Numbered from the stretch's first letter, positions 36,404 through 61,360 are shown. The stretch: 64,000 nucleotides of DNA from Naegleria gruberi (GCA_000004985.1 GG738859.1), one strand, 5' to 3'. Notes: generated from the sequence alone by a model not told the origin. Made by a program: numbers and translations.

Positions 36404-38316
36404 TTATAAAACCCATTCCCACTCACTGGCTATGTTAAAATCAACTTTCCCAAAGAAATCAATTTTCTGTGGCACAAAGAATGTCAAAATATGATCAATT
36501 GACTCATAGATTCCATCTCCAGTGAGTGCACAACCTGCTTGTATGTACCATTTTCTATCTGTTATGCTGTTCAGATTCAAATCATTGGCGATATTGGCGC
36601 AAGATGCAGCACTGAAGAAATCCTGCTTATTACAAAACACAACAATTGAAGTTTTCTTTGGAATACTTTCCAAAACAGTCCAAAGTAAATCTTTGGCTTG
36701 ATTCATTCTGCCAGTGTCTGTAGAATCAACAACAAATATTACAAAATCTGCTTCTTGTGCATAATCTTTCCACAAGTTGGCTAATCCACCAAAATCTTTC
36801 TATTCAAATATTAAATTAAGATGGTAAAAAATAAATTACTTACAATTGTAAAGTCAACATCTTTGTAATTAATCATTTGTGTGTTAAACTTATCAGTTGG
36901 AATAGTTAACACAACTTCACCCAAATACCACTTGTACAGGAGGGTTGTTTTACCACCACCATCAAGACCAATTAAAAATCCATTCTTTTTGGTTCGTTTC
37001 TTCTGTTTCTTCTCGAGGACCTTAATTTCTTGGAGACCCAATAGTTCTTTTGGAACTCCTCTTACGTGCAGAAGTGATTTGAGCATAATATCCTTCAGTT
37101 GATTTTTGGCAGATGTGAATAAATCTTCCTTTCCAAGATTTACAAAAATTGAAAAGAATGGAAACAAAATCTCATCATCATTAATTTTTGAAAAATCAAT
37201 AAACTCGAGCACGAATTTGTAAGCTTCCTCAAATCTTGCTTCATAATCTGTAACCACCCAAAAAATCAAAAAGTAAGTGACAGCCATCAAATCACCATTC
37301 GACAATAAACTCAATAGAATTTGTTTTAGCAACTCGAATGGCATTCTTCCAATCACCTTGTAATGAGCGTATTTGCTAACAACATAGCTAATCATTGCAT
37401 GCAAATCTTTCTCTGTAAATATTGGAACATGTTGCATCAAAGTTTGTTTGAATAACTTCTTGTCCTTTGTTGAATAACAACTGAGATCCTCTTCGAGCTC
37501 TGTATAACCAACCTTTCTATAAATTGGATCACATATAATGCAAGATGGTTGTGCAGAAATAATTGGAATAGTCTCTTCATAAATTATTGATTTGCAATCT
37601 TCAGATAATTCAATGGATGCAAGTGAAATAGTGAGAGCATTGTAGGCATTACAAACTTTGGAAATGGATTTTGTTAAACTCTCAACTTGATATTCATCTG
37701 CGATTTGTAGCAAACCTATTAAATCATCCATTTTAACAATAATTTCACTTTCTGATTTTGATTCGAATGTTAACTTATCAGAACCCAAATATCCAATGTG
37801 CACATAGTCAATCATCCATTCAAAATACTTATCAGATGTCTCAAGTGTCATTTCACTTGTTCTTGCTTCAATCATTTCACTATTTAACATTCTCTCAAAA
37901 ACTTTGCATTCTCTGGAAAGTATTTTCTTGGAAACTTGTAAATTGACCTTTCTATTAGGAATGCTAATATTGAATACATCTTGTTCATCAGTATTTTCAC
38001 TTTCGTATTTCACCAAAATGAAACCAACACCATTATTTTCAATTTTCTTTTTTACTTGATCGGAAGAGGCAACATTTTCTCTTCTCAGATAATAGCCGAT
38101 ATTTTGCTGAATGTAATCTATCAGAGAGGTGTTGATACCATAATTACTAACGAAACCTTTCCAATAACTTTCAAAATTGGTTGGAGGTACAACATCAGAT
38201 TGCATACCAAGAATATAATTCTGATCGAGTTCGGGAGAAATACAATACCAATGCGAGAGATTTTTAATTTCTTCTGTGTTGGCAATGGTATAATCAATAA
38301 TATCTTGGTTGATCAT
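36404..38316 (-). CDS. BTB/POZ-domain protein with a C-terminal ARF/ARL-type small-GTPase domain. Exons 38316..36844 and 36799..36404, 44-nt intron at 36843..36800 (GTAAGT...TTTGAATAG).
   Basis: Exon 1 contains a BTB-like segment (VNLQVSKKILSRECKVFERMLNSEMIE...LIGLLQIADEYQVESL) and ends with the ARF P-loop and switch I (FLIGLDGGGKTTLLYKWYLGEVVLTIPTDKFNTQMINYKDVDFTI). Exon 2 continues KDFGGLANLWKDYAQEADFVIFVVDSTD...VVFCNKQDF...WYIQAGCALTGDGIYESIDHIL. Switch II has Leu in place of the catalytic Gln. The track splits the gene into ORFs 36811..38316 and 36404..36775. Confidence 0.7.
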
Positions 38317-38381: not shown

Positions 38382-39452
38382 TTAGTTTCTTTCATTGGTA
38401 ACTTCACTCAATAATTGAGCAGTCCATTCATTAATTGAAGTGGTGGATGCATTTGGACAAAGATGAGCATGAGTAAATGCCATCCATCTTCCAGACTTGA
38501 TACATTTAGCACCAATAGACTTCAAACGTTCTCTCAATCCTCTATCGGATGTAACAAATAGACAAGAATCCAAAGTGCCAGCAATATTTTGTCTATTTGC
38601 CAATTCAACAAGCATATCATCAGCAATGGTGAAACCTTCCTTCTTGGCAGATGAAACAACAAATGTTCCATCATTGAAAGTACCATTAACTTGATTGCTT
38701 GAAGCATCGAAAACAACATGCATTAAATTCAATTTTTGATTTAAAGTTGTTTCAGAGAACTGAGAATACTTTTTGGCCATATGGACTAGTAATTCTTCAA
38801 CGAGGTGTTTCTTCTTACTCTTTAGAATTAAACCTCTCAAAGTACTGGTTTGGAAGAAGAGATTATTACCATCAATTACAATTCTACTAATTTCTGGATT
38901 CATCTTGGATGCAATTCCAGTACTTTCATCTACAAGAATTACATCATCAGTATGAATCTTTTGAGATTCTTCATTTTGGAAACGACGTTTTTCTTGACGT
39001 TCTTGTTTCTTGAGCTCTCTTTCAGCTTTTCTTTCACGCTTGTCATTGGAAACTTTATCCTTCTTTAACTTTTTCATTCTAATCTTGAAATCAACAATGA
39101 ATGATTCAACAGAAGTTGTGATGGAGGAATCAAGACGATGTTGAAGAATGGAATTAATAGAATTGGTCCAATCTTCATCAGTATGAAGGACTCTAAATTT
39201 TTTACCAGATTTTGCCTTAAAATCCTTAACCTTAACAATCTTGACAGATTTTGGTTCTTCATCATCATTCAAATTTGAATTAAATTGCTTTTCAATATAA
39301 TCTTTCAAATCTTGAAGATTTTCCAATGGAGAGAAAGAAGGTACACTTTGTTCAATAATTTGAATATCATCATGCTTCTTCATCATATAATTTAATTTAA
39401 TTCCAATTGGTTCGGAAGCATTGGTGTTGTTATTAATTGTGTTACTAATCAT
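38382..39452 (-). CDS. NYN (YacP-like) nuclease-domain protein, basic and coiled-coil rich
   Basis: 356 aa. The C-terminal IVIDGNNLFF...HVVFDASS...FVTSDRGLRERL follows the YacP/NYN pattern (VDGYN...VVFDA...TSD). The central part is KR/E-rich. Confidence 0.45.
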   Translation of the reverse strand: MISNTINNNTNASEPIGIKLNYMMKKHDDIQIIEQSVPSFSPLENLQDLKDYIEKQFNSNLNDDEEPKSVKIVKVKDFKAKSGKKFRVLHTDEDWTNSINSILQHRLDSSITTSVESFIVDFKIRMKKLKKDKVSNDKRERKAERELKKQERQEKRRFQNEESQKIHTDDVILVDESTGIASKMNPEISRIVIDGNNLFFQTSTLRGLILKSKKKHLVEELLVHMAKKYSQFSETTLNQKLNLMHVVFDASSNQVNGTFNDGTFVVSSAKKEGFTIADDMLVELANRQNIAGTLDSCLFVTSDRGLRERLKSIGAKCIKSGRWMAFTHAHLCPNASTTSINEWTAQLLSEVTNERN

Positions 39453-39801: not shown

Positions 39802-39873
39802 CTCCCATGCCGGGAATTGAACCCGGACCTCCTGGGTGAAAGCCAGGTATCCTAGCCATTGGACTACACGGGA
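39802..39873 (-). tRNA. tRNA-Glu (anticodon TTC)
   Basis: Reverse complement TCCCGTGTAGTCCAATGGCTAGGATACCTGGCTTTCACCCAGGAGGTCCGGGTTCAATTCCCGGCATGGGAG. Anticodon stem CCTGG/CCAGG, loop CTTTCAC. Confidence 0.85.
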
Positions 39874-39927
39874 TTACATTAAGGTTGATTAAGGTAATTT
39901 TTAATCGCTTAGTATTTTGAATTTTGT

Positions 39928-40851
39928 TTAATAGTAATCTCTACGACATGTTCTTTCAATATTTACAATTCTTCTATCTGAATCATCAACTATTACCTTA
40001 AGGTCTAAGTTGTCCGTATATCCTCCACCAGCATTATAATATGAAGGAAATATATATCCTTCAAGATTTGACAAATAAAGTGGCTCATGTCTATCTGATA
40101 ATTTTACATCATTGACATTCAATACTTCAATTAATTCAAAAGGAGATATCATTGGTGTGAAATTTTCAACATTCAAACCAATATCATATTGAATTACAGT
40201 TTCATGTGGCATTAAATATTGAGATAACTTGGAAAAATTGTCTGCATAATTATCAGCTTTCAAAACACAAGAAAGGAATGTCAATAGAGGTATTTCTGTT
40301 GTCATTTCGATACCTAACCTATTTTCACAAAGCTCAGCTTTCACTTTGTCAATAAATAAATTAGGAGTGTATCCAGAAACTGTCAATGAATCATATACAA
40401 TAGTGATAATGTAATGATCCAATATATCCTCTACATTCAATGGAATTTCCTTTCTAAATTTAAAAGATGCTCTATTTGCTTCTAAAAGCAGAGTATTTGT
40501 ACAATAATAATCTTCTCTATCATCTTCCTGTTTAAAGAATGATTGATAATTATCTGCAATCTCCAAACTATTAACTTCATATGGTTGATCTTTGGCATCA
40601 TTTTGTTTTTTAGGAATTTTCCAAGTAATTTCCAATAATTTAGATAACCAACAACAATTATTATCATTAGTAAGTGTATAATATTGATCAATCCTATAAT
40701 AATCACAATACATCATCTTCCAGAAAACTTGATTGGAATGAACACCTCTCTTCCACACATTATTCACTCTCCTGCACTTAATTATTTCATCTATCGGAAG
40801 GAATGACACAATGTGAGCAACTTCATGTACATGCAACTCGTGTTCGAACAT
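39928..40851 (-). CDS. F-box protein (307 aa)
   Basis: N-terminal F-box-like motif VHEVAHIVSFLPIDEIIKCRRVNNVWKRGVHSNQVFWKMMY. ATG at 40851 in an AAAAAATG context. Divergent from the next F-box gene across a 74-bp spacer. Confidence 0.6.
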   Translation of the reverse strand: MFEHELHVHEVAHIVSFLPIDEIIKCRRVNNVWKRGVHSNQVFWKMMYCDYYRIDQYYTLTNDNNCCWLSKLLEITWKIPKKQNDAKDQPYEVNSLEIADNYQSFFKQEDDREDYYCTNTLLLEANRASFKFRKEIPLNVEDILDHYIITIVYDSLTVSGYTPNLFIDKVKAELCENRLGIEMTTEIPLLTFLSCVLKADNYADNFSKLSQYLMPHETVIQYDIGLNVENFTPMISPFELIEVLNVNDVKLSDRHEPLYLSNLEGYIFPSYYNAGGGYTDNLDLKVIVDDSDRRIVNIERTCRRDYY

Positions 40852-40925
40852 TTTTTACTTGAAGTTTCAACATGTTTTCAACATGCAAGTAAACTGGCTC
40901 ATTTTGAAAATTCAATTTCAAAAAA
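40852..40925. promoter_or_regulatory. 74-bp bidirectional promoter between two divergent F-box genes, containing a tandem 11-nt direct repeat (G/T)TTTCAACATG x2 at 40864..40885
   Basis: The spacer is TTTTTTACTTGAAGTTTCAACATGTTTTCAACATGCAAGTAAACTGGCTCATTTTGAAAATTCAATTTCAAAAAA, lying between ATG 40851 (minus) and ATG 40926 (plus). Confidence 0.4.
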
Positions 40926-42524
40926 ATGCACACAGACATTCTGCGAGAGATTTTCATTCATTACATTGGTGATAGCATCTCTGTTTTGCATAATACGAAT
41001 CAATTCATGCTCGTTTGCAAGGATTGGTATGAAGCTACACAATCGGGAAATTTTTGGTCAATCCTGTTGAAAAAGATGATTAAAGAAGAGAAGGAAAATG
41101 TGTTGAAACAACAAGAACATAAAGAAGCAGCACTATTTACATATAGATGTCGCTTTGGAAGGCCAAAGAGATGTTGTTTAAACCATCATCCTAAGAATTA
41201 TTTAAAGTACTTGGAGAGATTGGAGAAAATTCAAGTCAACCAAGAAATTATATACAAGACAATGACAAGAAAATTATTTGAAAAGAGAAAATGGTTTGCC
41301 ATTCAAACCAAGATTGAGAATTTATTAATCCTTAAAGATAGAATTAATGATGATGAGGTGGAAGCTTGGAAAAATATTGTAAATTATATGGAAACGAAAC
41401 CATTTGGTAAAACACCAAAAGAAATTTGCCAATTCAAAATTTACGACAGAACTTTGCTTCAATATTTGTGCATGCATTTTTTTGGATATGATGAACAGAA
41501 ACAACATTTGTTTGACACTCTTGTTGAAAAGTATGAAGCAAACGTTTTGCCATGTTTGCAATATACATATTTTTCACGTGACTTCATTCAAAAGAACTAT
41601 ATTTTGGCTGATATTGAAAAAAGCAAAGGAAAAAGTGTGCCATTTGATATTTTAATCCATGCATTTAACAAGAATTTTTTCTCTAAGGAAAATCTTGATC
41701 AATTAGTTATTTTATTGAAAAAGTATAGACAGAGAGATTTCAGACCTTTATTTATGAAAAGGATATTGCCTCGTCTTTTGGGTGAAATATCTGAAACCTA
41801 CGTTGATTTTGCTAAAAAATTGAACTATCTCATAACCAAATTGAAAGTTTATTTATTGGATAATTTTTCTAGAGACGACATATCTAAGTGTGTGAGTGAT
41901 ATGTTTATAAACAGCAATCACCTTCGTTATTTTAATGATGATTCTCCAAACATTGATAAGGAAATTTATGAGCTTGTAAAAATGGGTTATGGACAGTATT
42001 TGAATTTACTACCTATTCCACTAGTATCATCATCAGATGATACACTCAATCTACTCAAACTTGTTGTTGAGCAGGGTATAGATCTAAAACAATATCCATA
42101 TATAATTCATGAAACATTGATGAGCAAAAGCTATAAAAAAATACCAACCTTGAAATATTTGATTGAGGAGAGGAATATCAAATATATTAGACCACCTAAA
42201 CATGAAAATGACATTCTAAATAGATTTATCTGCCCTTCAGAAGAATATTTGGAAAACATTGAATATCTCTCCTCAAAATTAGGTCTACGATTGACCTGTA
42301 TTGATTCATTTGTTCACTCTCTGAATTCAGATGTTAGGTTTGCCACATTGCAGAAAATAGTTGATCATGTAACTGAGAAATTTAAAATTGATGTTGTTTC
42401 AAATTGCCTCTCAAGAGTTTATTATAGTTGGCAGAATATAGCAGCACGCGAAGATGCTAATTTAGAAACTCAAAAGAAAGTATTGAGATATTTGGAAGCT
42501 AAGTTTCCCAATGCAATAATTTAA
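40926..42524 (+). CDS. F-box protein (532 aa)
   Basis: N-terminal ILREIFIHYIGDSISVLHNTNQFMLVCKDWYEATQSGNFWSILL (F-box-like). The rest is alpha-helical with no other recognised domain. Confidence 0.6.
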   Translation: MHTDILREIFIHYIGDSISVLHNTNQFMLVCKDWYEATQSGNFWSILLKKMIKEEKENVLKQQEHKEAALFTYRCRFGRPKRCCLNHHPKNYLKYLERLEKIQVNQEIIYKTMTRKLFEKRKWFAIQTKIENLLILKDRINDDEVEAWKNIVNYMETKPFGKTPKEICQFKIYDRTLLQYLCMHFFGYDEQKQHLFDTLVEKYEANVLPCLQYTYFSRDFIQKNYILADIEKSKGKSVPFDILIHAFNKNFFSKENLDQLVILLKKYRQRDFRPLFMKRILPRLLGEISETYVDFAKKLNYLITKLKVYLLDNFSRDDISKCVSDMFINSNHLRYFNDDSPNIDKEIYELVKMGYGQYLNLLPIPLVSSSDDTLNLLKLVVEQGIDLKQYPYIIHETLMSKSYKKIPTLKYLIEERNIKYIRPPKHENDILNRFICPSEEYLENIEYLSSKLGLRLTCIDSFVHSLNSDVRFATLQKIVDHVTEKFKIDVVSNCLSRVYYSWQNIAAREDANLETQKKVLRYLEAKFPNAII

Positions 42525-42579
42525 ATAAATGTAATAGTGGATATTTTCACACTAAGGCTGCAACATATCCTTAATATGT

Positions 42580-42652
42580 TCCCCCTTAGCTCAGTCGGCA
42601 GAGCGTCAGACTGTTAATCTGCAGGTCGGTGGTTCGAGCCCACCAGGGGGAG
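42580..42652 (+). tRNA. tRNA-Asn (anticodon GTT), copy 2
   Basis: Identical to the copy at 17598..17670 except for one D-loop base (GGCAG vs GGTAG). Followed by a T-run. Confidence 0.85.
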
Positions 42653-42910
42653 AATGTTTTTTATATTGACATCATCCCAACGGTTTTAACAAAAGAAAGT
42701 AAAGTTATTGTTTAGGGATTCTATTAGGACAGTTCAAATGTGTTTGAATCCTTTCAAATTCTTCAATTCCTCACATACCCGGCTATTTTCCTGAAATTGT
42801 TTTTGTCTTGAATTAATACTATCGAATTGCATGTCAGATAAAAGGAGCATACAAAGCAGAATAGAAAGGAAAGAAGTAATCCATAATGTGGAGCAATAAA
42901 TGTCTGACAT

Positions 42911-45412
42911 TTATTCATATATTTCTCCCATGATGAGAGTGATAAGAGCAGACCAACCAGTGAAAGGATGAGCTCCTTGCCCCTTCCCGGTTTGAGCATT
43001 ATATTGTTCGTAGAGGGTTCTAGATCTTCTCCATTCGTTATATAATGTTTGAATAATGTTGGTTCTGAGAGCATTATAAACTTCACCACATCTTGCTGAT
43101 TTCTGCTTACAATTGTGAAGAGCTCTCAAAGTCAAATAATTCAAATTAATCCAAATAGGGCCTCTCCAGTAATTTTCCTTAGTTCCAAACATTGGGTCAG
43201 TTTGACTCAAAGATGTCAAACCGTGCACGGTCCATAATTTATCTCTAATGATAGTGTCCAAGGCATGTTGAAGAAGTTTTGGTTCTTGTTCAAAGTCAGG
43301 AACATCAAAGAGGAATGGGAAAAGTGAAATATAACCAATGTGAGGTGAAAATTCTGGTCTAGTATCATTGCCAACAGGTTTACCAGCATAGTCACTAAAC
43401 CATTCAATATTCTTATTGTAATGTTGAGTCTTGATATTGGATTTCAAAGTCTTGAGTCTTTCAACTAATACTGGATCGTCCTTCTTGAAAATAATATTAT
43501 TAATCTTGTTCATTGTGTCTGTCATCATGTAAATCCAGCAATACAAATCCAAGTGACGTTCGTCATCACTAGGTTCAACATTACCTCTTGGATAATCATC
43601 AAGACCAGAAGAAAGTGTATGACCAGGAGTTCTACCTCTCCATCTGTATGAGTTTGGAATCTTTCCTTTTTGTGTGGACAAATACCATTCATAATTCTTC
43701 TTCATGTTAGGATAGACTTGATTGAGGAAAGAAACCATAGCTTCTGATTCAGACAATGATGCTACTCTTTGTGTGGCATCCAAATCTAGTTCAATTTGAT
43801 GATTTCTAGCATGATTCTTCAATAACTCCAAAACAGCAAGGAAGAGCATTGGAGGATTGGCGTGAGTATCGTGTTGGACTTGGAATTGTTCTGGAACTCT
43901 TGTTCTGGCTTCTGCTCCAAGAATTTGTTCTCTTGGAATCCATCCAGTACTCTTATCCATAACATTGAACCAATTGTTAATAATATCCTTTGCAATTTGC
44001 TTATTCCACTTTTGAATAAGAAGAGAGTGGAAACCTTCATCCCACAAGAATCCACGAGGGAAGAATGATCTACATGGACAGGCAGTAAACAAGGCATATG
44101 GCTCAATGGTTCTAATTTCTTGAAGATTTCCCTTTTGATGATAAGAATCACCATAATAATATCCAATACCTCCCACAAGATTAGAAAGAGCATACATGGT
44201 CATTTCTTTTTCATCTTCTTTCAAGTTCTTTTCCTTAAGGTTGAAAGTTTCTTGGAACTTTTGTTCAAAGCATGTCTTGAGTTGCTTAATATTGTTATCA
44301 AAGTTGTCGATATGATCTGAACCATGTTGCTTAATTTGGAAGTTGGAGAAAATATCTGGATGTTGCTCATGTGAAAGGAATGCAACATTCAAATCAAATG
44401 GTGCATAGAAAAATTTTTGAATAACAAGGATATTGCTGTCTTCCTCAATAAAGTTTGGCAAAGTGGCAATTGGGATTGGATAGTCTTTTTGTTCTGGCAA
44501 TCCTTTTTGTCTTCTTTCTTGTTGATCTTCAATCATTTGTTGGAAGGATTTTTTCATTTGAGAAGAGAACATTTCCTTAACTTCATCTCCAATTTTCCAC
44601 ACATCACTTGGAGTTCTCTTCACACCATAGAAATAAAAGTTTGCATGTTCATCAACTTGAGATTTTTCATTAGAGGTAAAGTACATGGAAAAATCTCCAA
44701 TGTCACCACTGTTTCCTCTAATAATTACTGGAAGATTGGATGGAAGACCTTGCTTCTTTGAACCTTGGATTCCAGAAATTCTAAATGATCCTTCTCCATC
44801 ATTTTCAAGAGCAATATAGAAACAAACAGACATGGCTTGCTTGGTTTTCATTTGTTTCAATTCCTTTCCAATAAGTCTAACAGTCCAATCACCCCCCTTT
44901 TCATTAACAGAAGGAACAAATGTATTTTCCGAAACATGTTTCATCATTCTAGTTTCGATTTGAAGAGAATTTTCGTGATCTTTGATTGTTTGCATGGCAA
45001 AGTTTTGTCCATCATGTCTATTCCACCCATAGACTACATTATTAAAATCCATATTACTATTGTGTCTCATCTTGTTAACTCCATCCCAAGTATCTGCTCT
45101 GTTCCACATTAATCCTGTAATAACAGACTTTGGATTTCTAGTTTTCATTCCGAATATTACTTGTGGTCGATAGGTTCCCCACTTCATTGTGTGATTGTAG
45201 AGAGTGGTTTGAAAGACTGGATCCGATCGGTGAATACAATTATTAGTTTCCAATTCATTTCCCATGACAATTTGAGAAGTTATCATCAATGTGCTAATAA
45301 AACACAATAACAAAAGTGAATAAAAGAATCTACTCATAGGTGGTGAAGATGACACTGAACACGTGTTAAGCTGGTGGTGATTTGCTGTGCCAAGTATCAT
45401 CCGTGTGGTCAT
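42911..45412 (-). CDS. MOGS: Mannosyl-oligosaccharide glucosidase (glucosidase I, glycoside hydrolase family 63), type II membrane protein
   Basis: 833 aa. N-terminal signal-anchor SRFFYSLLLLCFISTLMITS. The GH63 hallmark ALFTACPCRSFFPRGFLWDEGFHSLLIQKWN and a collinear C-terminal (alpha/alpha)6 region. Confidence 0.85.
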   Translation of the reverse strand: MTTRMILGTANHHQLNTCSVSSSPPMSRFFYSLLLLCFISTLMITSQIVMGNELETNNCIHRSDPVFQTTLYNHTMKWGTYRPQVIFGMKTRNPKSVITGLMWNRADTWDGVNKMRHNSNMDFNNVVYGWNRHDGQNFAMQTIKDHENSLQIETRMMKHVSENTFVPSVNEKGGDWTVRLIGKELKQMKTKQAMSVCFYIALENDGEGSFRISGIQGSKKQGLPSNLPVIIRGNSGDIGDFSMYFTSNEKSQVDEHANFYFYGVKRTPSDVWKIGDEVKEMFSSQMKKSFQQMIEDQQERRQKGLPEQKDYPIPIATLPNFIEEDSNILVIQKFFYAPFDLNVAFLSHEQHPDIFSNFQIKQHGSDHIDNFDNNIKQLKTCFEQKFQETFNLKEKNLKEDEKEMTMYALSNLVGGIGYYYGDSYHQKGNLQEIRTIEPYALFTACPCRSFFPRGFLWDEGFHSLLIQKWNKQIAKDIINNWFNVMDKSTGWIPREQILGAEARTRVPEQFQVQHDTHANPPMLFLAVLELLKNHARNHQIELDLDATQRVASLSESEAMVSFLNQVYPNMKKNYEWYLSTQKGKIPNSYRWRGRTPGHTLSSGLDDYPRGNVEPSDDERHLDLYCWIYMMTDTMNKINNIIFKKDDPVLVERLKTLKSNIKTQHYNKNIEWFSDYAGKPVGNDTRPEFSPHIGYISLFPFLFDVPDFEQEPKLLQHALDTIIRDKLWTVHGLTSLSQTDPMFGTKENYWRGPIWINLNYLTLRALHNCKQKSARCGEVYNALRTNIIQTLYNEWRRSRTLYEQYNAQTGKGQGAHPFTGWSALITLIMGEIYE

Positions 45413-45590
45413 TTTTTATTCTTTTGTTACTAGAACCTCTCAAAGCTTTAATAATTCATACTAGTAGTAATGAATAATTTGTTTTATTATCTGTTCTTTG
45501 AATAGTTGATGAATAAATATTCATTGAATACTAATGGGATGAAGACTTGATTGTTGTATGATGATAAGAAAGAATAATAAAAAATTAAAA

Positions 45591-46177
45591 ATGGATCCAC
45601 AACTCTTGAACGCCATTCAAAAAATCAACGCCCAACAAGAAGAAGTCAACAAACTCACTGCTGGTATGTGTTTAAATGTGAAGATTGTTCGGATATATAT
45701 TGTTTTTAATATTGGATTTTATTGGATTTTTAATGGTGATGGAATGATGATACATTTTGTATTACTTTTATTGGTTGGATAAATTTGATGAATGATGTGA
45801 TGATCATGACAATTTAATTATGGATGGAACGGAACAACATTGTAGAGGTTCAAGTAATTTTGGCCAAACAACAATCTCTCTTGGCTCAAAAGAACGAAAA
45901 TGATACTGTCAAGTTAGAATTTGATCTCATCGATGAAACATCAGATGAAGTTGAAGTTTATAAACTCATTGGACCTGTCCTCATCAAACAAGATGCTGCC
46001 GAAGCTAAATCAAACGTTGAAAAACGATTGGAATTTATCAAGAAGGAAGTGGAAAATGCTGATAAAAAGATTGAAGAATCATTAAAAAAGAAGGAAAGTC
46101 TTGAAAAGAGTATGGTTGAAATCTCACAATGGGTACAACAAAGAGTTGCACAAATCCAACAACTCCAAAAGAAATAA
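45591..46177 (+). CDS. PFDN1: Prefoldin subunit 1-like (beta-type prefoldin). Exons 45591..45663 and 45846..46177, 182-nt intron at 45664..45845.
   Basis: Exon 1 MDPQLLNAIQKINAQQEEVNKLTA ends in phase 1 at a GTATGT donor. The TGTAG acceptor restores ...LTAEVQVILAKQQSLLAQKNEND...YKLIGPVLIKQDAAEAKSNVEKRLEFIKKEVE (beta-hairpin flanked by coiled coils, like human PFDN1). The intron is the longest in the window and contains a short tandem repeat (ATTGGATTTT x2). Confidence 0.55.
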
Positions 46178-46360
46178 ACACTTATTTATTATCAAATAAC
46201 CGTAAATATTAATAATTTGATAATTAAAACTCATTTATTAATAATCAAGATGAAATACATGTGAAGTCAATTTATTGCTTAATTGACCAACTAAATAATA
46301 ATGTAAAATAATAGAGTCGAGAAATAATAATTTTGTTTTCTTATTTCCTCACCAAATAAA

Positions 46361-47011
46361 ATGAACAACAAATCATCAACAGAAACCCAACAAAGAGTTG
46401 TGCCAGGACAAAGAATCGGGCAAACCGATACTTATCAATCAGGACGAGGAACATACGTGAAGGATAATCGGATACATGCTAGTGTTGTAGGAAGTGTTAA
46501 AATTTCTAATCATGCTGATATTGATGAATCTACACCATCATCATCAAATAATTCATCATCAACTTCGGAGGTTGCTTCTCTTCCATATATTCATGTTATT
46601 CAAGAAAATAATCAAGAAACTATTGTACCAAATATTCTATCAGTTGTTACAGCTAAAGTTATCAAGACAACAAAATCATTTGCTAAAGTTGACATTTTGT
46701 GTGTGGATGGCAAACCTGTTACTAAATCAGGATCAGCAATTAGTGGACTTTTAAGAGTTCAAGATATTAGAGCAACAGAAATTGACAAGGTTGTTCTGTA
46801 TGAATGTCTCAGACCAGGTGATATCATTCTTGCAGAAGTCATTTCATTAGGTGATTCGAGAAGTTACTACATTTCAACAGCTAGAAATGAATTAGGAGTT
46901 ATTTATGCAACATCAAGTTTTGGATATCCAATGATTCCTCTCGATTGGACAACTATGGTTTGCACAAAGACAAATGCTAGAGAATTAAGAAAGGTTGCCA
47001 AAGTTTTGTAA
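46361..47011 (+). CDS. CSL4: Exosome complex component CSL4
   Basis: 216 aa. VVPGQRIGQ...SGRGTYV...IHASVVG, then the S1/Zn-ribbon region PNILSVVTAKVIKTTKSFAKVDILCVDGKP...IRATEIDKVVLYECLRPGDIILAEVISLGDSRSYYISTARNELGVIYA...ELRKVAKV is collinear with human EXOSC1. Confidence 0.75.
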   Translation: MNNKSSTETQQRVVPGQRIGQTDTYQSGRGTYVKDNRIHASVVGSVKISNHADIDESTPSSSNNSSSTSEVASLPYIHVIQENNQETIVPNILSVVTAKVIKTTKSFAKVDILCVDGKPVTKSGSAISGLLRVQDIRATEIDKVVLYECLRPGDIILAEVISLGDSRSYYISTARNELGVIYATSSFGYPMIPLDWTTMVCTKTNARELRKVAKVL

Positions 47012-47136
47012 TAAATTAAAGAATTTATGAAATCATTTTCGAACTGGAATAAACCAAGTTGACTGATGTAATCTTACAAATGGCAGAAAATGAGAAAAAT
47101 TCGTGCTTGCTCGTCGGCCAATTAAAGAAAACTAAA

Positions 47137-48270
47137 TTATTTTTCTTCATTCAAGAGATTTGCAGTATCTGAAAGATTTTCATCATTCTGAAAGTAATCT
47201 TGCATTTCTAATAGTGAGAAGAAGGCATCTTGATTAGCACTAATTGAAATAAAAGTATTCGAATCGAGTGATTCCTTTGAACCCCACTTGTTCTTACTTT
47301 CAATTACTTCCACTCTTTTGAACTGACAAATGGAAGTTTTTATGGCTACTGCACCTGCCAAGACATCATGGAACTTTTTTCCTTCAGCATTCTTTTCTAA
47401 ATATTTGGCCATTCCTCTATAAATAATTCTCAATCCTATTAAAGCTAAAACTTGACTTGGTGTCTTGTTTTTCAAATTCGAATACTTTTCAATTTGAGAT
47501 TCCAAACTTGTGTGTCTTTTTGGTCCATATATCACACCGTGACAAACATTCTTCGAAACCAGTATTCTCCTATCAATCCATTTCGAATTCAGCACCATCT
47601 TGGCTGCTGGAACATTTCCTCCAAAATTATATGTTGAAACCATCTCTTCATTCTTGAATTTCTTCAATCTGAAAGGTTCTGGTACAACATTTGGACCAGC
47701 ATATCCCCCCTGAATGACACACAATCCAATCCTCTTTTCCTCCTCATTGAATTCATCTTGATTATTCTTAATAAATGTTCCAAGATTACTGAGAGGAGCT
47801 CCTGTAACGAATAGCAACTTAGTTCCATGCACTCTCCAACATTCACTCATCAAATCATATCCCAAACCGTCACCAATCGATTCTTCCTCCTCCATGAATT
47901 TAACATAGTTAGGATAGAGTTTAGCTAAAAATCCCGAAAGACAATCCTTCTTATGATGAGGATTAAAAGCACCCACTTTAATCTTGCTCAATCTTTCAAT
48001 AATTGAATTCATATCAAGACCACTTTCCAAATCTGCCTCTTGTTTCTTGCACTCGACTACTAATTCAGATAAAAAACATTTTACAAAGGCAATTTGACTT
48101 TTCGAACCAGGAGCAATTGTTATACATTGAATATCAATCTCGGGATGGCACACTAAAAAGACCATATTGAAGAAATCATCAGGATCACCTGTTTCCATAT
48201 CAATAATGCATGGAATCATTTTTTTTGTGTATGAACTCTTGAAAATAGATTCAATTTTGAAATCAACCAT
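47137..48270 (-). CDS. Inosine-uridine-preferring nucleoside hydrolase family protein
   Basis: 377 aa. N-terminal Asp-cluster IIDMETGDPDDFFNMVF (the DxDxxxDD calcium-binding motif of IU-NH), VTGAPLSNLG, and the C-terminal half consistent with the fold. Confidence 0.7.
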   Translation of the reverse strand: MVDFKIESIFKSSYTKKMIPCIIDMETGDPDDFFNMVFLVCHPEIDIQCITIAPGSKSQIAFVKCFLSELVVECKKQEADLESGLDMNSIIERLSKIKVGAFNPHHKKDCLSGFLAKLYPNYVKFMEEEESIGDGLGYDLMSECWRVHGTKLLFVTGAPLSNLGTFIKNNQDEFNEEEKRIGLCVIQGGYAGPNVVPEPFRLKKFKNEEMVSTYNFGGNVPAAKMVLNSKWIDRRILVSKNVCHGVIYGPKRHTSLESQIEKYSNLKNKTPSQVLALIGLRIIYRGMAKYLEKNAEGKKFHDVLAGAVAIKTSICQFKRVEVIESKNKWGSKESLDSNTFISISANQDAFFSLLEMQDYFQNDENLSDTANLLNEEK

Positions 48271-48322
48271 GTTTTATTATTAGTATTTCAGAAGATTCGA
48301 ATTTCAATAAGAGATAATTCCA

Positions 48323-50116
48323 TTACCGTTCTTTGTGAGGATTCTGTTGTACATAGCTTTCAAATAATTGTAAAATATCATCCTTATACTGATAATCAAC
48401 ATGAACGTTAATATAGTCAAGAGCTGATACTCCATGAATTTGTGTATGAACATTTGGTTTTCTAGCCAATAACTTTGTCAAAACCCTCATTAACTTTTCC
48501 TTGTTTTGAATGGTGTCATAAACCACAGCACTTATAATTCTTTGGAGTGGACTCGAACCAACAATATCTGACATTTGGTCATCAAATAATTCATCATCTA
48601 TTCTATCAATGAAATATTCTATGGTATCCAATAATTGTTCACCACTATCAAAAGATGCATTAAGGTATTGATAAATGAGAGGTATCTTATTGGGAATCTT
48701 GTTTGGTAATTTAAACCCCCTTACATCACAAAAATATTTTACAAAATCAAGGTTTCTACTAGTTGCAAACAGGTATATGATATCATCAGTAATCATACAC
48801 CTGTTTTGTGTCTTTTCGTAGAGCTCGAAAATATGAATAACATTTTCAACGGTAAGGTGATGTTTTCGAAATGAAACAAACGGATTTGGGCTCATGAAAA
48901 TGTCATCAAGATTATTTTGGCATTTCTCAATTAAATTCACTCCTTCTTTAGTGAACCTCCAATCTGAGACTGCCTTTTCAAATAATTCTAAAGAAAATTG
49001 TAATCTAAATGCATAGTTAGCATGTTCAATTAACGAGAAAGCAATCACATCTTCATCACATTTGAATGTAAAGCTGTTTTTCTTTTTCTCTTCTGATACA
49101 AAAGAAGGAAATAATTGATTAAAGCAGTTCAGGTAGTACATTATTTCATCAACAGGGTATGATTTGTCCAAAAAAACACTCATGACCTTCATTCCAAAGA
49201 TCAATATTTCCTTGTGATTTAGGTAGGGATTTGTAACTTGTTGTTCATTTTCTGCTTTTTTACAATCCTCCACCAGAAAATCCAAAATTCCTTTCACCAA
49301 TTCAAAATCCATAGTTTCAACAGCAACTTGTAAACAGTAGTAACCATTGATAGGATATTTAAATCTCTTTCCACTAGTAAGTATTCTAACTGGTTCAATA
49401 ATTTGTCTATTCAAATTCCAAAACTCTTTCACGGATTCTTCTATTGATGGGTTAATTTGCCGCACTAATTTGCATTTAATGAAAGAATAATCTTTCGAGA
49501 ATGAATCAGCAAATTTTCCTGAAAATCCTTTTTGTAATAAATATCTTTGATCCATATAAATCTCATCTCCACAGTCAGGTTTTAAATTATTCTCCACAAA
49601 TTCTATTAGATTATTCCACTTTTCAGTTATTGGCACAATAACTTCTGCTAAATTAGAATGAGAATTTGATTGTGGAGCTACTGTTCGATCCATTAAATTT
49701 GTCAATTTTTCAGTATTCCGCCCAAGCAAGAATGCCTTAACCTCCTTCTTGAAAATTGAATAAAATCTAAAGCCTGTAAAGAAATTTACATCCTCATATC
49801 CCTCCTCCGATTTACAAACTTTTTCTCTGTGATATAATTTTTCAGCTTCATCAACATGACTCCTTCTCAAATCATTTAATTTTTTAATTTTCCCCTTGGT
49901 TTTACTTTTCATCAGGGCTTTTGCATCATTTTCTAATTTCTCCTCTTCAAATTCTATCCGATCTTGTAAAAAGAATGAAAATCTCATTCTCCACAAAGCC
50001 TCATATCTAGCCACTCCGAGCCAATGTCTATTGAGCAGTAATAAATTAGCAACATCCCTCGTCTTGGAACACATTAGAAAAATACTGAAAATTAAATCCT
50101 CCTGCAATTCATTCAT
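48323..50116 (-). CDS. F-box protein (~597 aa from the first plausible ATG)
   Basis: The track ORF starts at an alternative TTG (50209). The ATG at 50116 (CGAAAAAAAATG context) gives MNELQEDLIFSIFLMCSKTRDVANLLLLNRHWLGVARYEALW (F-box-like) directly at the N-terminus. Confidence 0.55.
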   Translation of the reverse strand: MNELQEDLIFSIFLMCSKTRDVANLLLLNRHWLGVARYEALWRMRFSFFLQDRIEFEEEKLENDAKALMKSKTKGKIKKLNDLRRSHVDEAEKLYHREKVCKSEEGYEDVNFFTGFRFYSIFKKEVKAFLLGRNTEKLTNLMDRTVAPQSNSHSNLAEVIVPITEKWNNLIEFVENNLKPDCGDEIYMDQRYLLQKGFSGKFADSFSKDYSFIKCKLVRQINPSIEESVKEFWNLNRQIIEPVRILTSGKRFKYPINGYYCLQVAVETMDFELVKGILDFLVEDCKKAENEQQVTNPYLNHKEILIFGMKVMSVFLDKSYPVDEIMYYLNCFNQLFPSFVSEEKKKNSFTFKCDEDVIAFSLIEHANYAFRLQFSLELFEKAVSDWRFTKEGVNLIEKCQNNLDDIFMSPNPFVSFRKHHLTVENVIHIFELYEKTQNRCMITDDIIYLFATSRNLDFVKYFCDVRGFKLPNKIPNKIPLIYQYLNASFDSGEQLLDTIEYFIDRIDDELFDDQMSDIVGSSPLQRIISAVVYDTIQNKEKLMRVLTKLLARKPNVHTQIHGVSALDYINVHVDYQYKDDILQLFESYVQQNPHKER

Positions 50117-50404
50117 TTTTTTTCGATAATTATTACAAAATCGACTTGATGGAAATACTGAATATTGGATCATCCAATTTTCTAATAAGAAGATTAATCT
50201 TAATGACAAACTTTTATCAGAGTGTTCTCTAGGTACCTCATAAAGGCTTGACTAAATTTTCCATAACGGAACCTTAAAAGTACAAAAATGCGGCGATTGA
50301 CTTAACTTCGATCAAAAAGCTGAGTGTACGTAAAGAGAGGCTTAAAAAAGCTTTTTAAAATTAAAAAAAATTTGCAAACTCTAATTACTCCTATCCTATA
50401 CAAA

Positions 50405-51394
50405 ATGACTAAACCAACAATGAAGGTCCTCGTCACTGGTGCTGCAGGTCAAATCTGTTACTCTCTCATTGGTATGATTGCTAGTGGTCAAATGCTCGGT
50501 TTCGATCAACCAATCATTCTCCACTTGCTCGAAGTCCCAGTTGCCATGGACGCTTTGAAGGGTGTTTGTATGGAAATTACCGATTCTGCTTATCCATTGG
50601 TTAAGAAGGTTGTTGCTACCTCTGATTACCAAGAAGCTTTCACTGATATTGATGTTTGTATCATGGTTGGTGCTATGCCAAGAAAGGACGGTATGGAAAG
50701 AAAGGATTTGTTGGAAAAGAATGCTTCCATCTTCAAGGGACAAGGTGAAGCTTTGGAAAAGTATAGCAAGAAGTCTGTTAAAGTTCTCGTTGTTGGTAAT
50801 CCAGCCAACACTAACTGTCTTATTGCTAAGACTTATGCACCATCTATTCCAGCTGAAAACTTCTCTGCTCTCACTCGTTTGGATCATAACAGAGCTAAGG
50901 CTCAAGTTGCTGATCGTCTCGGTGTCAATGTTTCCGATGTTCACAATGTCACTATTTGGGGTAACCACTCTTCCACTCAATATCCAGATGTTTCTCACGG
51001 ATATGTCACAATTAATGGTGAAAAGAAGTCTATCACTGAAGCTGTCAATGATGATGCTTGGTTGAAGGGTGATTTCATTAGCACTGTTCAAAAGAGAGGT
51101 GCTGCTGTCATTGCTGCTAGAAAATTGTCTTCTGCCACATCTGCTGCTAAGGCTATTGTCGATCACGTCCATGATTGGGTTTTGGGTACTCCAGAAGGTG
51201 AATGGGTTTCTATGGCTATTCCATCCGATGGTTCTTACGGTATTCCAGAAGGTGTTATTTATTCATTCCCAGTTACTTGCAAGGATGGTGTTGTCACTAT
51301 TGTTCAAGGTTTGAAGATTGATGATTTCTCCAGAAACAAGATGGAAGTTACCGATAAGGAATTGAGAGAAGAAAAGCAATTGGCTTTGAACTAA
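50405..51394 (+). CDS. MDH1: Cytosolic-type malate dehydrogenase (NAD-dependent, MDH1 family)
   Basis: [20 protein letters not shown]...[16 protein letters not shown]...[13 protein letters not shown]...[14 protein letters not shown]...[13 protein letters not shown]... is about 60-65% identical by eye to animal cytosolic MDH. The track ORF starts upstream at an alternative codon; the real ATG is 50405. Confidence 0.9.
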
Positions 51395-51597
51395 ATTGTG
51401 TATAAATATGTAAAATTTAAAATTGTACAAATAATTATTTAAATATTATTTATTTTCTCCACAAATCGAATGGATCCTTTTCAATTCCAATTTTAAAAGC
51501 AATTTCCAAAATTATTTGTTCTTGATGATAGACATGATGAATAATTAGCCACCAAATGTAAGTGTACCAAATTTGCTGACTATGTTTCTATGCCTAA

Positions 51598-51978
51598 TTA
51601 TTGTCCTCCAGGAGGAATTTGTGATGTTGCTCTTCCTGATGTTAATCCGAGAGTACCACGCAAAGCTTCTCTCTTCAAACGTTCCTTCTTGATATTCTTA
51701 ATTTCATCAATTGTCAAATCTGGAGCACTTTCATTTGTTGTTGGAATATCAGCCTCTAACATATCATCATTTGACATTAATTTATTTTCCACTCTACATT
51801 TCAAATATTCGGAGGCTTCCTTTCTACATTTTGATGCAAAATTTTGATTATCTTGAAGACATTTATAATAAAGCTCTACAGCTTGGTCACATTCATGAAG
51901 ATGATCCAATGGAAATGATCCTCTCTTTGGACCAGGACCAACTCGTACTTCCTTTGCTTGTTGAGTTCCTCTATTCAT
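51598..51978 (-). CDS. COX19: COX19 (twin Cx9C cytochrome-c-oxidase assembly protein)
   Basis: 126 aa. PKRGSFPLDHLHECDQAVELYYKCLQDNQNFASKCRKEASEYLKCRVENKLM has two C-x9-C pairs and the RGSFPLDH..EC motif of COX19. Confidence 0.7.
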   Translation of the reverse strand: MNRGTQQAKEVRVGPGPKRGSFPLDHLHECDQAVELYYKCLQDNQNFASKCRKEASEYLKCRVENKLMSNDDMLEADIPTTNESAPDLTIDEIKNIKKERLKREALRGTLGLTSGRATSQIPPGGQ

Positions 51979-52072
51979 TTTTTATTTAAATAATTAATAA
52001 TTTGTACCCAGAAATGGAAAGTGCACAACAATTTACATTGAAAATTAATCTTTATTGATGTTATTGAAACAC

Positions 52073-53788
52073 TCAATGATTACTGTATTTTACATTTCCT
52101 TTTTTCAAATCAATCACTACAACAGTGTCCATAGCTGCTGTTTGAGTGATAAGAAATAACTCTCCATTACTTCTTACCTCTCCAAATACAGATTCTGATT
52201 CTCTATTTAAATTCATAGGTCCATTACCAGCTCGGTTGAGTGATACAAAGTGTTCACGACTTGGTTTCAAAACTATATTTTCTTTGTAAACTAATGAACC
52301 ATCATCTAGTCTGACTCGTTCTAAACGAGATTTCAAATAGGAAGGATCGATGTGAATAAACATTAAATCAAATAGATATCTCCTGTCTAGTTCATCAAGA
52401 GGAGTGTTGTCTCTTCTTTCTGACCTTCTCTTTCTAATAGTTACGCCATCAAGGGGAATCCACAAATATTTTGTTTCGAAAAAACCAGAATAAGATTGAA
52501 ACTCAAGATTTCTGCTCCACTTTTCAGTACAGTCCATTGAGATTAGCACATTGTCTGCTTTTCTATGTTGATATTTGAATTCTAGTAAGCAAACTCTATT
52601 GAGTGTATAGAGTATCACATTAGTTAACATGGTAACATGTTGGTCATTGTCATTTTGTTGCTCCACTGAAAGAGTAGCCATTTGTAAAATAATATCCTCA
52701 TAGAAATACATTAATATTCGTCCAGTCAAGGCATGAATGAGAATGTAACACTGGTTTTCATCTTCATCCATTGGTTGTAACAGGAAATTTCCAGAGACAA
52801 CATCCATCAAGCGCATTGGAATGTTCACTCCTGGAATACCCTTCACCTTATTAAATAGATTTCTAATATCAATACTCCACAATTTTTGTCCATTCTCAAT
52901 ATTCCAAGCATGGAATGTTTTAAATTCACTGCAAAATGTATCCACAATTCCGAATTCATTATTTACAGCATCGTTGAGATGAATTTTCTTGTTGGGGCCA
53001 TCTTCATTCTCCCAAACGAGACTTCCATTCGAACAATCCAGGACCTTGATTCCAGATGTGTTGATACCCATTAACACATAATTCTTTCTTGGGTAGTGAT
53101 AAATATTGGTACAATTGACTAACCTAGTCAAATAATTTTTCTTTTCTTTTTCAAATCTAAGCAGCGGTTCCAATCGAATCGACCAAACTTGATTTCCAAA
53201 CAAATCAAAATATTCTACAGTTTCATGTTTTACAATAATTCCTCCCATTTTCTTTGCGATTTGAGATTCTTCCAATCCTTTTTCTCCTCTCAATACCTTA
53301 TCCATATTTTCATTAGTAATATTTACAGAAATGTACAAATCAATATCATAAGTTAAGTTATCAAAACTATTATTCGGATGAAAAAAATGATAGCCATAAT
53401 ATCCACCCTCCTTATATTGTGCAGGAATATCAGAGAGACAGTAGGCACTCTTTTTCATCAGTGGAAAAGAACATAACTTGTATGAACCATTTCCATTCCG
53501 AATCATTTCAACAACACTCCCCCTAATTAGAAATTTCCTATAATTCAATCTCCTACTCAATTCTTTAAATAAATCCAACCAGGTAACTTTTTCAGTGATC
53601 AAACTTTTCCATTCTCTCCTAGCCTCTTCTCCATAATAATCAACGAAATAATTCATCCACAGAAAATCATTCGTATCTATCAATTGATGCCAACTCCGAC
53701 AACATGTAGAGATGTAGTTGAGGAGAAAATGTGGAGGAAGCATTGAAAAAATTGTCAACAATATTTCCTCTGGTACATTTTCAAACAT
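52073..53788 (-). CDS. F-box protein (~571 aa from the first ATG)
   Basis: The track start 53863 is an alternative TTG. The ATG at 53788 gives MFENVPEEILLTIFSMLPPHFLLNYISTCCRSWHQLIDTNDFLW (F-box). The C-terminal ~450 aa are uncharacterised. Confidence 0.55.
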   Translation of the reverse strand: MFENVPEEILLTIFSMLPPHFLLNYISTCCRSWHQLIDTNDFLWMNYFVDYYGEEARREWKSLITEKVTWLDLFKELSRRLNYRKFLIRGSVVEMIRNGNGSYKLCSFPLMKKSAYCLSDIPAQYKEGGYYGYHFFHPNNSFDNLTYDIDLYISVNITNENMDKVLRGEKGLEESQIAKKMGGIIVKHETVEYFDLFGNQVWSIRLEPLLRFEKEKKNYLTRLVNCTNIYHYPRKNYVLMGINTSGIKVLDCSNGSLVWENEDGPNKKIHLNDAVNNEFGIVDTFCSEFKTFHAWNIENGQKLWSIDIRNLFNKVKGIPGVNIPMRLMDVVSGNFLLQPMDEDENQCYILIHALTGRILMYFYEDIILQMATLSVEQQNDNDQHVTMLTNVILYTLNRVCLLEFKYQHRKADNVLISMDCTEKWSRNLEFQSYSGFFETKYLWIPLDGVTIRKRRSERRDNTPLDELDRRYLFDLMFIHIDPSYLKSRLERVRLDDGSLVYKENIVLKPSREHFVSLNRAGNGPMNLNRESESVFGEVRSNGELFLITQTAAMDTVVVIDLKKGNVKYSNH

Positions 53789-61321: not shown

Positions 61322-61360
61322 TTTCTCTTAAGTTTTTAATGTAAATAAATATTGTAAAAA

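What the first reader, a model, noticed from the sequence alone, without database searches (positions are those of the whole stretch)
39928..53788. Local enrichment of F-box genes, two of them sharing a 74-bp bidirectional promoter with a tandem 11-mer
Five F-box proteins lie in 64 kb: 10950..12380, 39928..40851, 40926..42524, 48323..50116 and 52073..53788. Beyond the F-box they share no obvious similarity, so this is not a simple tandem duplication.

The genes at 39928..40851 (minus) and 40926..42524 (plus) are head-to-head with only 74 bp between their ATGs. That spacer contains (G/T)TTTCAACATG twice in tandem (40864..40885). The locus also holds the BTB-ARF gene.
Basis: partly seen in the sequence, partly recalled or inferred. 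Interest (0 to 1): 0.5.

Follow-up and report, generated by a model that had tools for sequence, protein, structure and literature searches.

The report
Unrelated F-box genes in Naegleria gruberi
This stretch of the amoeba Naegleria gruberi carries five unrelated genes for F-box proteins (adaptors that pick targets for ubiquitin tagging), a family already known to be diversified in this species; the short repeated 11-base motif between two of them looks like an ordinary small duplication, not a demonstrated control element.

Summary
The window is Naegleria gruberi NEG-M nuclear DNA. All stated coordinates hold: five ORFs, a 74-bp head-to-head spacer (40852..40925) and the tandem 11-mer (40864..40885).

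F-box support is uneven:
- 52073..53788 passes Pfam's cut-off.
- 10950..12380 and 39928..40851 are sub-threshold but clearly significant for a targeted test.
- 48323..50116 is rescued by a close homologue.
- 40926..42524 is weakest. It is an orphan, and its GenBank model starts 112 codons downstream and omits the putative F-box. Codon statistics nevertheless favour the long ORF.

The five share nothing outside the F-box. Gene order is not conserved in N. lovaniensis or Willaertia.

The 11-mer is not enriched in the window. It is one of ten perfect two-copy micro-tandems here and is absent from other upstream regions.

Whether five F-box genes among about 42 is a real excess depends on a genome-wide count I could not obtain. 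It would be surprising only if fewer than about 235 such genes exist. The family is reported as diversified in this species.

Verdict: ordinary SCF substrate-receptor genes in a compact genome. The promoter-motif idea is unsupported. Low interest.

The parts
10950..12380 (+). F1: F-box (aa 110-144, about nt 11277..11381) fused to a cyclophilin-type PPIase. GenBank EFC46220, named 'cyclophilin'.
   Evidence: Pfam Pro_isomerase 96.4 bits. F-box-like 19.0 bits and F-box 15.5 bits, both below the cut-off. Exact match to EFC46220.
39802..39873 (-). tRNA-Glu(UUC), 54 bp downstream of the stop codon of F2.
   Evidence: Rfam tRNA 67 bits. ARAGORN.
39928..40851 (-). F2: 307-aa protein with an N-terminal F-box (aa 12-49, nt 40705..40818) and an uncharacterised C-terminal domain carrying a conserved YxNAGGG motif. 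GenBank EFC46348 (NAEGRDRAFT_65699).
   Evidence: F-box-like 17.8 bits and F-box 15.2 bits. Four homologues at 26-45% identity, and 4 of the 5 family members hit F-box-like. Alignment A3.
40852..40925 (.). 74-bp divergent spacer between the ATGs of F2 and F3. It has an A-run immediately before each ATG.
   Evidence: Sequence read directly. Shortest of the 9 divergent spacers in the window. A-rich words before the ATG are the general upstream signal in this window.
40864..40885 (+). Tandem 11-mer, GTTTCAACATG followed by TTTTCAACATG. A third, inverted copy with one mismatch lies at 40900..40909. Each copy contains the palindrome CATG and so places an ATG on both strands.
   Evidence: Not enriched; one of 10 perfect micro-tandems in the window.
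40926..42524 (+). F3: 532-aa all-helical orphan protein with a weak N-terminal F-box-like motif (DILREIF...VCKDW...FW, nt about 40932..41066). The GenBank model (420 aa) starts at 41262 and lacks it.
   Evidence: Pfam F-box 13.5 bits, E=0.071. The only database hit is itself, as a 420-aa model. Codon score of the extension equals that of the rest of the gene. Custom HMM gives 2.4 bits. A post hoc motif regex hits only F3 and F4 among 546 ORFs.
42579..42653 (+). tRNA-Asn(GUU), 54 bp downstream of the stop codon of F3.
48323..50116 (-). F4: 597-aa protein with an N-terminal F-box (aa 7-44, nt 49985..50098) and a helical C-terminal region. GenBank EFC46351 (NAEGRDRAFT_65705); UniRef name 'F-box domain-containing protein'.
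   Evidence: F-box-like 12.7 bits. Homologue P0013 (48% identity, nearly the same N-terminus) scores E=3.7e-6. N. lovaniensis homologue P0014 at 28% identity. Exact match.
52073..53788 (-). F5: 571-aa protein with an F-box (aa 3-48, nt 53645..53782) and a probable beta-propeller (FBXW-like).
   Evidence: F-box-like 38.7 bits and F-box 27.5 bits, both above the cut-off. PQQ_2 22 bits, below the cut-off.
36404..38316 (-). BTB-Arf gene, made of two ORFs (36811..38316 and 36404..36775) separated by a short intron. It is a substrate adaptor of another cullin-ligase type, fused to a small GTPase.
   Evidence: BTB 22.9 bits, Arf model positions 4-62 and 74-170.

Best explanation
These are five independent members of the large, fast-evolving F-box family of Naegleria gruberi. 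Each should act as an interchangeable substrate receptor of an SCF (Skp1-Cul1-Rbx1) ubiquitin ligase. The N-terminal F-box docks on Skp1, and the unrelated C-terminal domains recruit different targets: a cyclophilin PPIase, an unknown domain with a NAGGG motif, two different helical regions and a beta-propeller.

Their proximity is most simply a by-product of three things: a high family density, a compact genome, and extensive rearrangement. It does not look like a functional cluster or a recent tandem array.

The 74-bp spacer is the short shared 5' region that two divergent genes have in a compact genome. The tandem 11-mer in it is a replication-slippage micro-duplication with no evidence of function.

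What is shown:
- The domain calls.
- The lack of paralogy.
- The lack of synteny.
- The lack of motif enrichment.

What is inferred: Skp1 binding and the ligase role, from established knowledge of the F-box family.
For: - Organism and genes are identified by exact protein matches.
- F-box calls come, with targeted P values of 5e-8 to 4e-6.
- No other F-box was found in about 40 further ORFs or in 546 six-frame ORFs.
- There is no similarity between the five outside the F-box.
- The N. lovaniensis homologue of F4 and the glucosidase orthologues of N. lovaniensis and W. magna sit among entirely different neighbours.
- A published survey names BTB and F-box as CRL substrate selectors diversified in N. 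gruberi (PMC4327156 supplement).
- The 11-mer is not enriched.
- Micro-tandems are frequent: 10 observed against 3.1 simulated.
- CAACATG is upstream of no other gene.
- The F-box genes share no upstream motif beyond the generic A-run.
Against: - 74 bp is the shortest of the nine divergent spacers in the window.
- The spacer holds three copies of TTTCAAMATG, two direct and one inverted, which is what a paired binding site could look like.
- If the genome holds fewer than about 235 F-box genes at this lax criterion, 5 of 42 would be a true local excess.
- 34 unbiased genes in related loci contained only one F-box gene.
- F3's F-box is weak.
Confidence: 0.6

Rival explanations
1. Birth-and-death hotspot. 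The genes descend from old local duplications of an F-box gene. Their C-terminal regions have since diverged, or been swapped, beyond recognition, as in plant and nematode F-box arrays. On this view the cluster is real and marks a region where new substrate receptors arise.
For: - Four F-box genes lie among 10 consecutive genes.
- All of them are lineage-restricted. F3 has no homologue at all. F2 and F4 have only a few distant ones.
- There are no other F-box genes among about 37 neighbours.
Against: - There is no detectable similarity outside the F-box, even profile-to-sequence.
- The F-boxes themselves are only 15-23% identical.
- Housekeeping genes are interspersed: glucosidase, prefoldin, an exosome subunit, a nucleoside hydrolase and malate dehydrogenase.
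- The arrangement is not conserved in N. lovaniensis or W. magna.
- Clustering within the window is weak. The hypergeometric P for 4 of 10 genes is about 0.008 before correcting for about 33 window positions (my own calculation).
Confidence: 0.2
2. Co-regulated divergent pair. The 74-bp spacer is a true bidirectional promoter, and the repeated TTTCAA(C/A)ATG units (two direct, one inverted) bind a transcription factor that drives both F-box genes together.
For: - It is the shortest divergent spacer in the window.
- Three copies of a 10-mer lie within 46 bp.
- The exact 10-mer occurs nowhere else in the 64 kb.
Against: - With up to 1 mismatch the motif is at chance level, 16 against 17.9.
- It is not found upstream of any other gene or in 69 kb of related loci.
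- The same 21-mer tandem turns up in 56 unrelated metagenome contigs.
- Each copy adds an upstream ATG on both strands, which is a cost for a 5' UTR (direct reading).
- No orthologous spacer is available to show conservation.
Confidence: 0.1
3. Over-calling. F3, and possibly others of the sub-threshold group, are not F-box proteins, so the window holds three or four F-box genes and the divergent pair is not an 'F-box pair'.
For: - F3 scores only 13.5 bits with no significant stretch.
- It scores 2.4 bits against a heterolobosean F-box HMM.
- It has no homologues.
- The GenBank model omits the region.
- The AlphaFold model is unusable, at pLDDT 41.6.
- The PDB profile searches found no F-box chain.
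Against: - The per-model P is 2.9e-6.
- The hallmark blocks DILREIF, VCKDW and FW occur in the canonical order at the very N-terminus. A post hoc regex for them hits only F3 and F4 among 546 ORFs, against 0.02 expected.
- The extension is coding by codon score.
Confidence: 0.25

Closest known systems
F-box proteins, the substrate receptors of SCF (Skp1-Cul1-Rbx1) ubiquitin ligases (Pfam PF00646 and PF12937)
   Same: All five have a 40-50-aa N-terminal motif with the LPxEIL..IF / VCKxW / LW pattern, followed by a variable C-terminal interaction domain. F5 has the classic F-box plus beta-propeller (FBXW) layout.
   Different: Four of the five fall below Pfam's gathering score. The C-terminal regions of F2, F3 and F4 match no known domain. 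Skp1 binding is untested.
Clustered, rapidly evolving F-box gene arrays of plants and nematodes
   Same: Many lineage-specific F-box genes lie close together, with diverse C-termini.
   Different: Those arrays consist of recognisable tandem paralogues. Here neighbours show no paralogy, and housekeeping genes lie between them.
Bidirectional promoters of head-to-head gene pairs in compact eukaryotic genomes
   Same: The genes are divergent, with a very short shared 5' region (74 bp).
   Different: No expression data, no transcription start sites, no conserved or enriched motif. The spacer length rests on an unannotated start codon.
Multidomain cyclophilins linked to ubiquitin ligases: the U-box cyclophilin PPIL2, and the F-box cyclophilins listed for wheat (PMC7641896)
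   Same: F1 joins an E3-ligase-recruiting motif to a cyclophilin PPIase domain.
   Different: F1 has an F-box rather than a U-box. Homology to the wheat proteins was not tested.

Membership tests
F-box protein family | Sequence match to the F-box profile (PF00646 or PF12937) at or above the curated cut-off | tested here: inconclusive
   Met for F5 (38.7 bits). Not met for F1 (19.0), F2 (17.8), F3 (13.5) and F4 (12.7). The per-model P values are 5e-8 to 4e-6. A homologue of F4 scores E=3.7e-6, and 4 of 5 F2-family members match.
F-box protein family | Motif near the N-terminus, followed by a separate C-terminal substrate-binding region | tested here: met
   The matches lie at aa 3-49 in F2 to F5 and at aa 110-144 in F1. 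C-terminal domains: cyclophilin (F1), propeller-like (F5), and unknown or helical (F2-F4).
F-box protein family | Three-helix F-box fold that binds Skp1 | not testable with these tools
   The AlphaFold2 models were too poor to use, at pLDDT 41.6 and 34.8. No complex prediction or binding assay is available.
Tandemly duplicated gene cluster | Neighbouring genes are detectable paralogues | tested here: not met
   All-against-all blastp gives only marginal matches (E >= 0.37), confined to the F-box. hhalign of the F4-family profile against F3 gives probability 0.3%.
Conserved (syntenic) gene cluster | The same neighbours in related species | tested here: not met
   N. lovaniensis loci L001 and L003 and W. 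magna locus L004 have different neighbours and no homologues of F1, F2, F3 or F5.
Bidirectional promoter | Divergent genes with start sites less than about 1 kb apart | tested here: met
   74 bp between the ATGs at the ORF level, or 410 bp if GenBank's start for F3 is used.
Bidirectional promoter | Correlated expression of the two genes from the shared region | not testable with these tools
   No expression or transcription-start data are available.
Cis-regulatory motif | Recurrence above chance in other promoters, or conservation in orthologous spacers | tested here: not met
   16 matches against 17.9 expected with up to 1 mismatch. Not upstream of other genes. Absent from related loci. No orthologous spacer was found. 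A genome-wide test was not possible.

The most novel reading that the evidence does not exclude
The 2.85-kb unit 39802..42653 is a self-contained, co-regulated module and a site where new SCF receptors are born. It holds two lineage-restricted F-box genes transcribed outward from a 74-bp spacer that carries three TTTCAA(C/A)ATG units. Each gene is followed at 54 bp by a same-strand tRNA gene that could act as a boundary. The wider 14-kb region would then be a true F-box hotspot in Naegleria.
Probability: 0.07. Interest if true: 0.4.

Novelty: new member of a known kind. Interest (0 to 1): 0.15.

Why it matters
It matters little beyond annotation.
- Two N. gruberi 'predicted proteins' (NAEGRDRAFT_65699, and the gene at 40926..42524) can be labelled probable F-box proteins.
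- One GenBank gene model probably lacks its first 112 codons.
- Four of the five genes fall below Pfam's cut-off. Standard domain counts may therefore understate the SCF receptor repertoire of this amoeba.

If the clustering proved significant genome-wide, it would say something about how protists generate new ubiquitin-ligase specificities. Nothing here shows that.

Tried and rejected
- **Structure route.** AlphaFold2 on F3 (single sequence, pLDDT 41.6) and on the F2 family (5 sequences, pLDDT 34.8). Both were unusable, so no fold search was run.
- **PDB profile searches.** The F4 and F2 family profiles returned only spurious hits and no F-box chain.
- **MAFFT alignment of the five N-termini.** It misaligned F1 and was not used as a profile.
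- **Genome-wide F-box count.** N. gruberi contigs are not in the gene-position index. The genome paper is not held. Five literature searches gave no number. Only a qualitative statement of diversification was found.
- **Orthologous spacer.** F3 has no homologue. The best F2 homologue has no contig on record. A metagenome scan with the F2 alignment found nothing.
- **Metagenome scan for the 21-mer tandem.** It gave 56 contigs unrelated to this locus.
- **Shared upstream motif among the F-box genes.** None beyond the generic A-run.
- **BTB/F-box/Arf neighbours of the glucosidase in W. magna as possible synteny.** Rejected: they lie on the opposite side of the gene and are not homologous outside the F-box.
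Full report
**Identity of the window**

Exact look-ups place six of ten ORF products in GenBank records of Naegleria gruberi NEG-M, on a 530,355-bp scaffold.
- EFC46220, 'cyclophilin', is 10950..12380.
- EFC46348 (NAEGRDRAFT_65699) is 39928..40851.
- EFC46351 (NAEGRDRAFT_65705) is 48323..50116.
- EFC46349, a glucosidase, is 42911..45412.

GC content is about 33% and ORFs are dense. This is a compact protist nuclear genome with few introns.

**Are the five proteins F-box proteins?**

| Gene | Coordinates | Pfam result |
|---|---|---|
| F1 | 10950..12380 | F-box-like 19.0 bits at aa 111-141, plus a strong cyclophilin domain |
| F2 | 39928..40851 | 17.8 bits at aa 13-49 |
| F3 | 40926..42524 | 13.5 bits (PF00646), no stretch significant on its own |
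| F4 | 48323..50116 | 12.7 bits |
| F5 | 52073..53788 | 38.7 bits, the only one above the gathering cut-off of 24.3; a propeller-like C-terminus |

These hmmscan E-values are scaled to 24,736 models. For the targeted question 'is there an F-box?' the per-model P values are 5e-8, 1e-7, 3e-6 and 4e-6. They survive correction for about 92 tests.

Independent support differs by gene:
- F4 has a 48%-identical homologue (P0013) with an almost identical N-terminus that scores E=3.7e-6. UniRef already names F4 'F-box domain-containing'.
- F2 belongs to a small family (P0015-P0018). Four of its five members hit F-box-like.
- F3 is the weak one.
  - It has no homologue in 5.8 billion proteins other than its own GenBank model.
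  - A heterolobosean F-box HMM built without it gives 2.4 bits.
  - Its AlphaFold model is unusable.
  - In its favour are the canonical blocks DILREIF, VCKDW and FW, in order, at the extreme N-terminus, with a loop 4-5 residues longer than usual. A loose, admittedly post hoc regex for that pattern hits only F3 and F4 among 546 six-frame ORFs, against 0.02 expected from shuffles.

I rate F1, F2, F4 and F5 as F-box proteins and F3 as probable, at about 0.75. No further F-box was found in about 40 other ORFs or in any six-frame ORF of 40 aa or more.

**Gene model of F3 and the 74-bp spacer**

GenBank's protein for this gene is 420 aa and starts at M113 of the ORF, which is nt 41262. The annotated model therefore has no F-box, and the annotated spacer is 410 bp.

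- The 112-codon extension has the same in-frame codon log-odds as the annotated part, 0.116 against 0.115 bits per codon. The other frames and the antisense strand are negative.
- The chance of 112 stop-free codons at this composition is 2e-4.

With that start, the spacer is exactly 74 bp. It is the shortest of nine divergent spacers in the window; the others are 195 to 1804 bp. Same-direction gaps of 45-65 bp also occur, so the genome is simply tight.

**The tandem 11-mer**

GTTTCAACATG and TTTTCAACATG are present at 40864..40885. A third, inverted copy with one mismatch lies at 40900..40909.

The evidence for significance is weak:
- The exact 10-mer occurs only twice in the window, against 0.74 expected; 21 of 100 shuffles reach 2.
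- With up to one mismatch there are 16 matches against 17.9 expected.
- Perfect two-copy tandems with units of 9-14 nt number ten in the window, against 3.1 +/- 1.4 in Markov simulations. Slippage micro-duplications are a general feature here, and this is one of them.
- CAACATG is found in the upstream 100 nt of no gene other than this pair. The real upstream signal in the window is an A-run before the ATG, which both genes have.
- The F-box genes share no upstream word beyond that.
- The 10-mer is absent from 69 kb of N. lovaniensis, W. magna and related loci.
- The 21-mer tandem occurs in 56 metagenome contigs that are unrelated to this locus.
- Each copy contains CATG and so adds an upstream ATG on both strands. 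Either the 5' UTRs are under about 40 nt, or short uORFs exist (direct reading).

**Relationship between the genes**

All-against-all blastp finds only marginal matches confined to the F-box. The F4-family profile against F3 gives hhalign probability 0.3%.

Between the F-box genes lie housekeeping genes: glucosidase I, prefoldin, exosome Csl4, a nucleoside hydrolase, malate dehydrogenase and a CHCH protein.

**Conservation**

- The N. lovaniensis homologue of F4 (28% identity) sits among UCH, E1, RhoGAP, aminotransferase and acyl-CoA dehydrogenase genes.
- The glucosidase orthologues of N. lovaniensis and Willaertia magna have entirely different neighbours.
- tblastn finds no F1, F2, F3 or F5 homologues in those loci.
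- The N. lovaniensis genes there that lack a Pfam hit have no F-box even at a lax threshold.
- W. magna has one F-box/WD40 gene near its glucosidase, but on the other side and related only through the F-box.

The arrangement is specific to N. gruberi.

**Is five of about 42 genes an excess?**

I could not obtain the N. gruberi count.
- Its contigs are not in the position index.
- The genome paper is not held.
- Literature searches gave no figure.
- A survey of ubiquitin systems states that CRL substrate selectors diversified in N. gruberi, naming 'BTB and F-box' (PMC4327156 supplement).

Binomial figures follow. They assume about 15,700 genes and 41 Mb, which is my own recollection of the genome paper.

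| F-box share of genes | Approx. number of genes | Expected windows like this one, genome-wide |
|---|---|---|
| 1% | 157 | 0.04 |
| 1.5% | 235 | 0.26 |
| 2% | 314 | 0.9 |
| 3% | 471 | 5 |

Only one of the five passes Pfam's cut-off. By the strict criterion the window therefore holds a single F-box gene, which is unremarkable. By the lax criterion the genome total must also be several-fold larger than published Pfam-based counts.

In 34 unbiased genes from related loci, one was an F-box gene. That is compatible with anything from 0.1% to 15%.

Within the window, 4 of 10 consecutive genes gives a hypergeometric P of about 0.008 before correcting for position (my own calculation). The enrichment claim is therefore open, and I lean towards chance in a family-rich genome.

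**Mechanism**

By established knowledge of the family, each protein should dock through its F-box on Skp1 in an SCF ligase and present a different substrate through its C-terminal domain. That step is inferred, not shown.

The spacer presumably holds two minimal core promoters. Nothing shows that the 11-mer takes part.

**Verdict**

- The coordinates are accurate.
- The F-box reading is right for four genes and plausible for the fifth.
- The 'not tandem duplicates' point is right.
- The motif and promoter idea has no support.
- The cluster's significance is undetermined.

These are new, or newly recognised, members of a well-known family in a species where that family is known to be large. Interest is low.

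Noticed in passing
window 39802..39873 (-) and 42579..42653 (+): The divergent F2/F3 pair is bracketed symmetrically by tRNA genes. tRNA-Glu lies 54 bp after F2's stop and tRNA-Asn 54 bp after F3's stop, each on the strand of the adjacent gene. The window holds five tRNA genes in all (Phe 5126, Asn 17598, Thr 25243, Glu 39802, Asn 42579). My rough estimate of the chance of such bracketing is about 0.1-0.4, so it is not significant alone.
   Followed up: partly
window 40926..41261: The GenBank model of this gene (420 aa, starting at 41262) appears to lack 112 N-terminal codons. Those codons are open and have a normal in-frame codon score.
   Followed up: yes
window 10950..12380: An F-box (sub-threshold) is fused to a cyclophilin PPIase domain. 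It is annotated only as 'cyclophilin'. The same architecture is listed for some wheat cyclophilins (PMC7641896). It is functionally analogous to the U-box cyclophilin PPIL2.
   Followed up: partly
window 38382..39452 (-): This 356-aa protein (NAEGRDRAFT_65698) has a weak PIN-like match. It shares a 90%-identity cluster with N. gruberi proteins on two other scaffolds (EFC43775, EFC39480) and with an ENA metagenome protein. It is therefore a recently duplicated or mobile multi-copy gene, lying next to the tRNA-Glu and F2.
   Followed up: no
window 36404..38316 (-): The BTB-Arf fusion gene is split into two ORFs by a short intron inside the Arf domain (Arf model positions 4-62 and 74-170).
   Followed up: partly
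window 40872..40892 (+) and 40884..40867 (-): Because each 11-mer copy contains CATG, the spacer carries upstream ATGs on both strands. One opens a 6-codon uORF in frame ahead of F3 and another a 5-codon uORF ahead of F2. This implies very short 5' UTRs or uORF-bearing transcripts.
   Followed up: no
window 61358..64000 (+): A long ORF (881 codons or more) runs off the right end of the window and is not listed by the ORF tool. It has no F-box signal.
   Followed up: no
L004 778..5743 (Willaertia magna): A BTB-BACK gene, an F-box/WD40 gene and an Arf gene sit together about 4-9 kb from the glucosidase orthologue. This echoes the BTB-Arf and F-box genes near the N. gruberi glucosidase. They lie on the opposite side and are not homologous outside the F-box.
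   Followed up: partly
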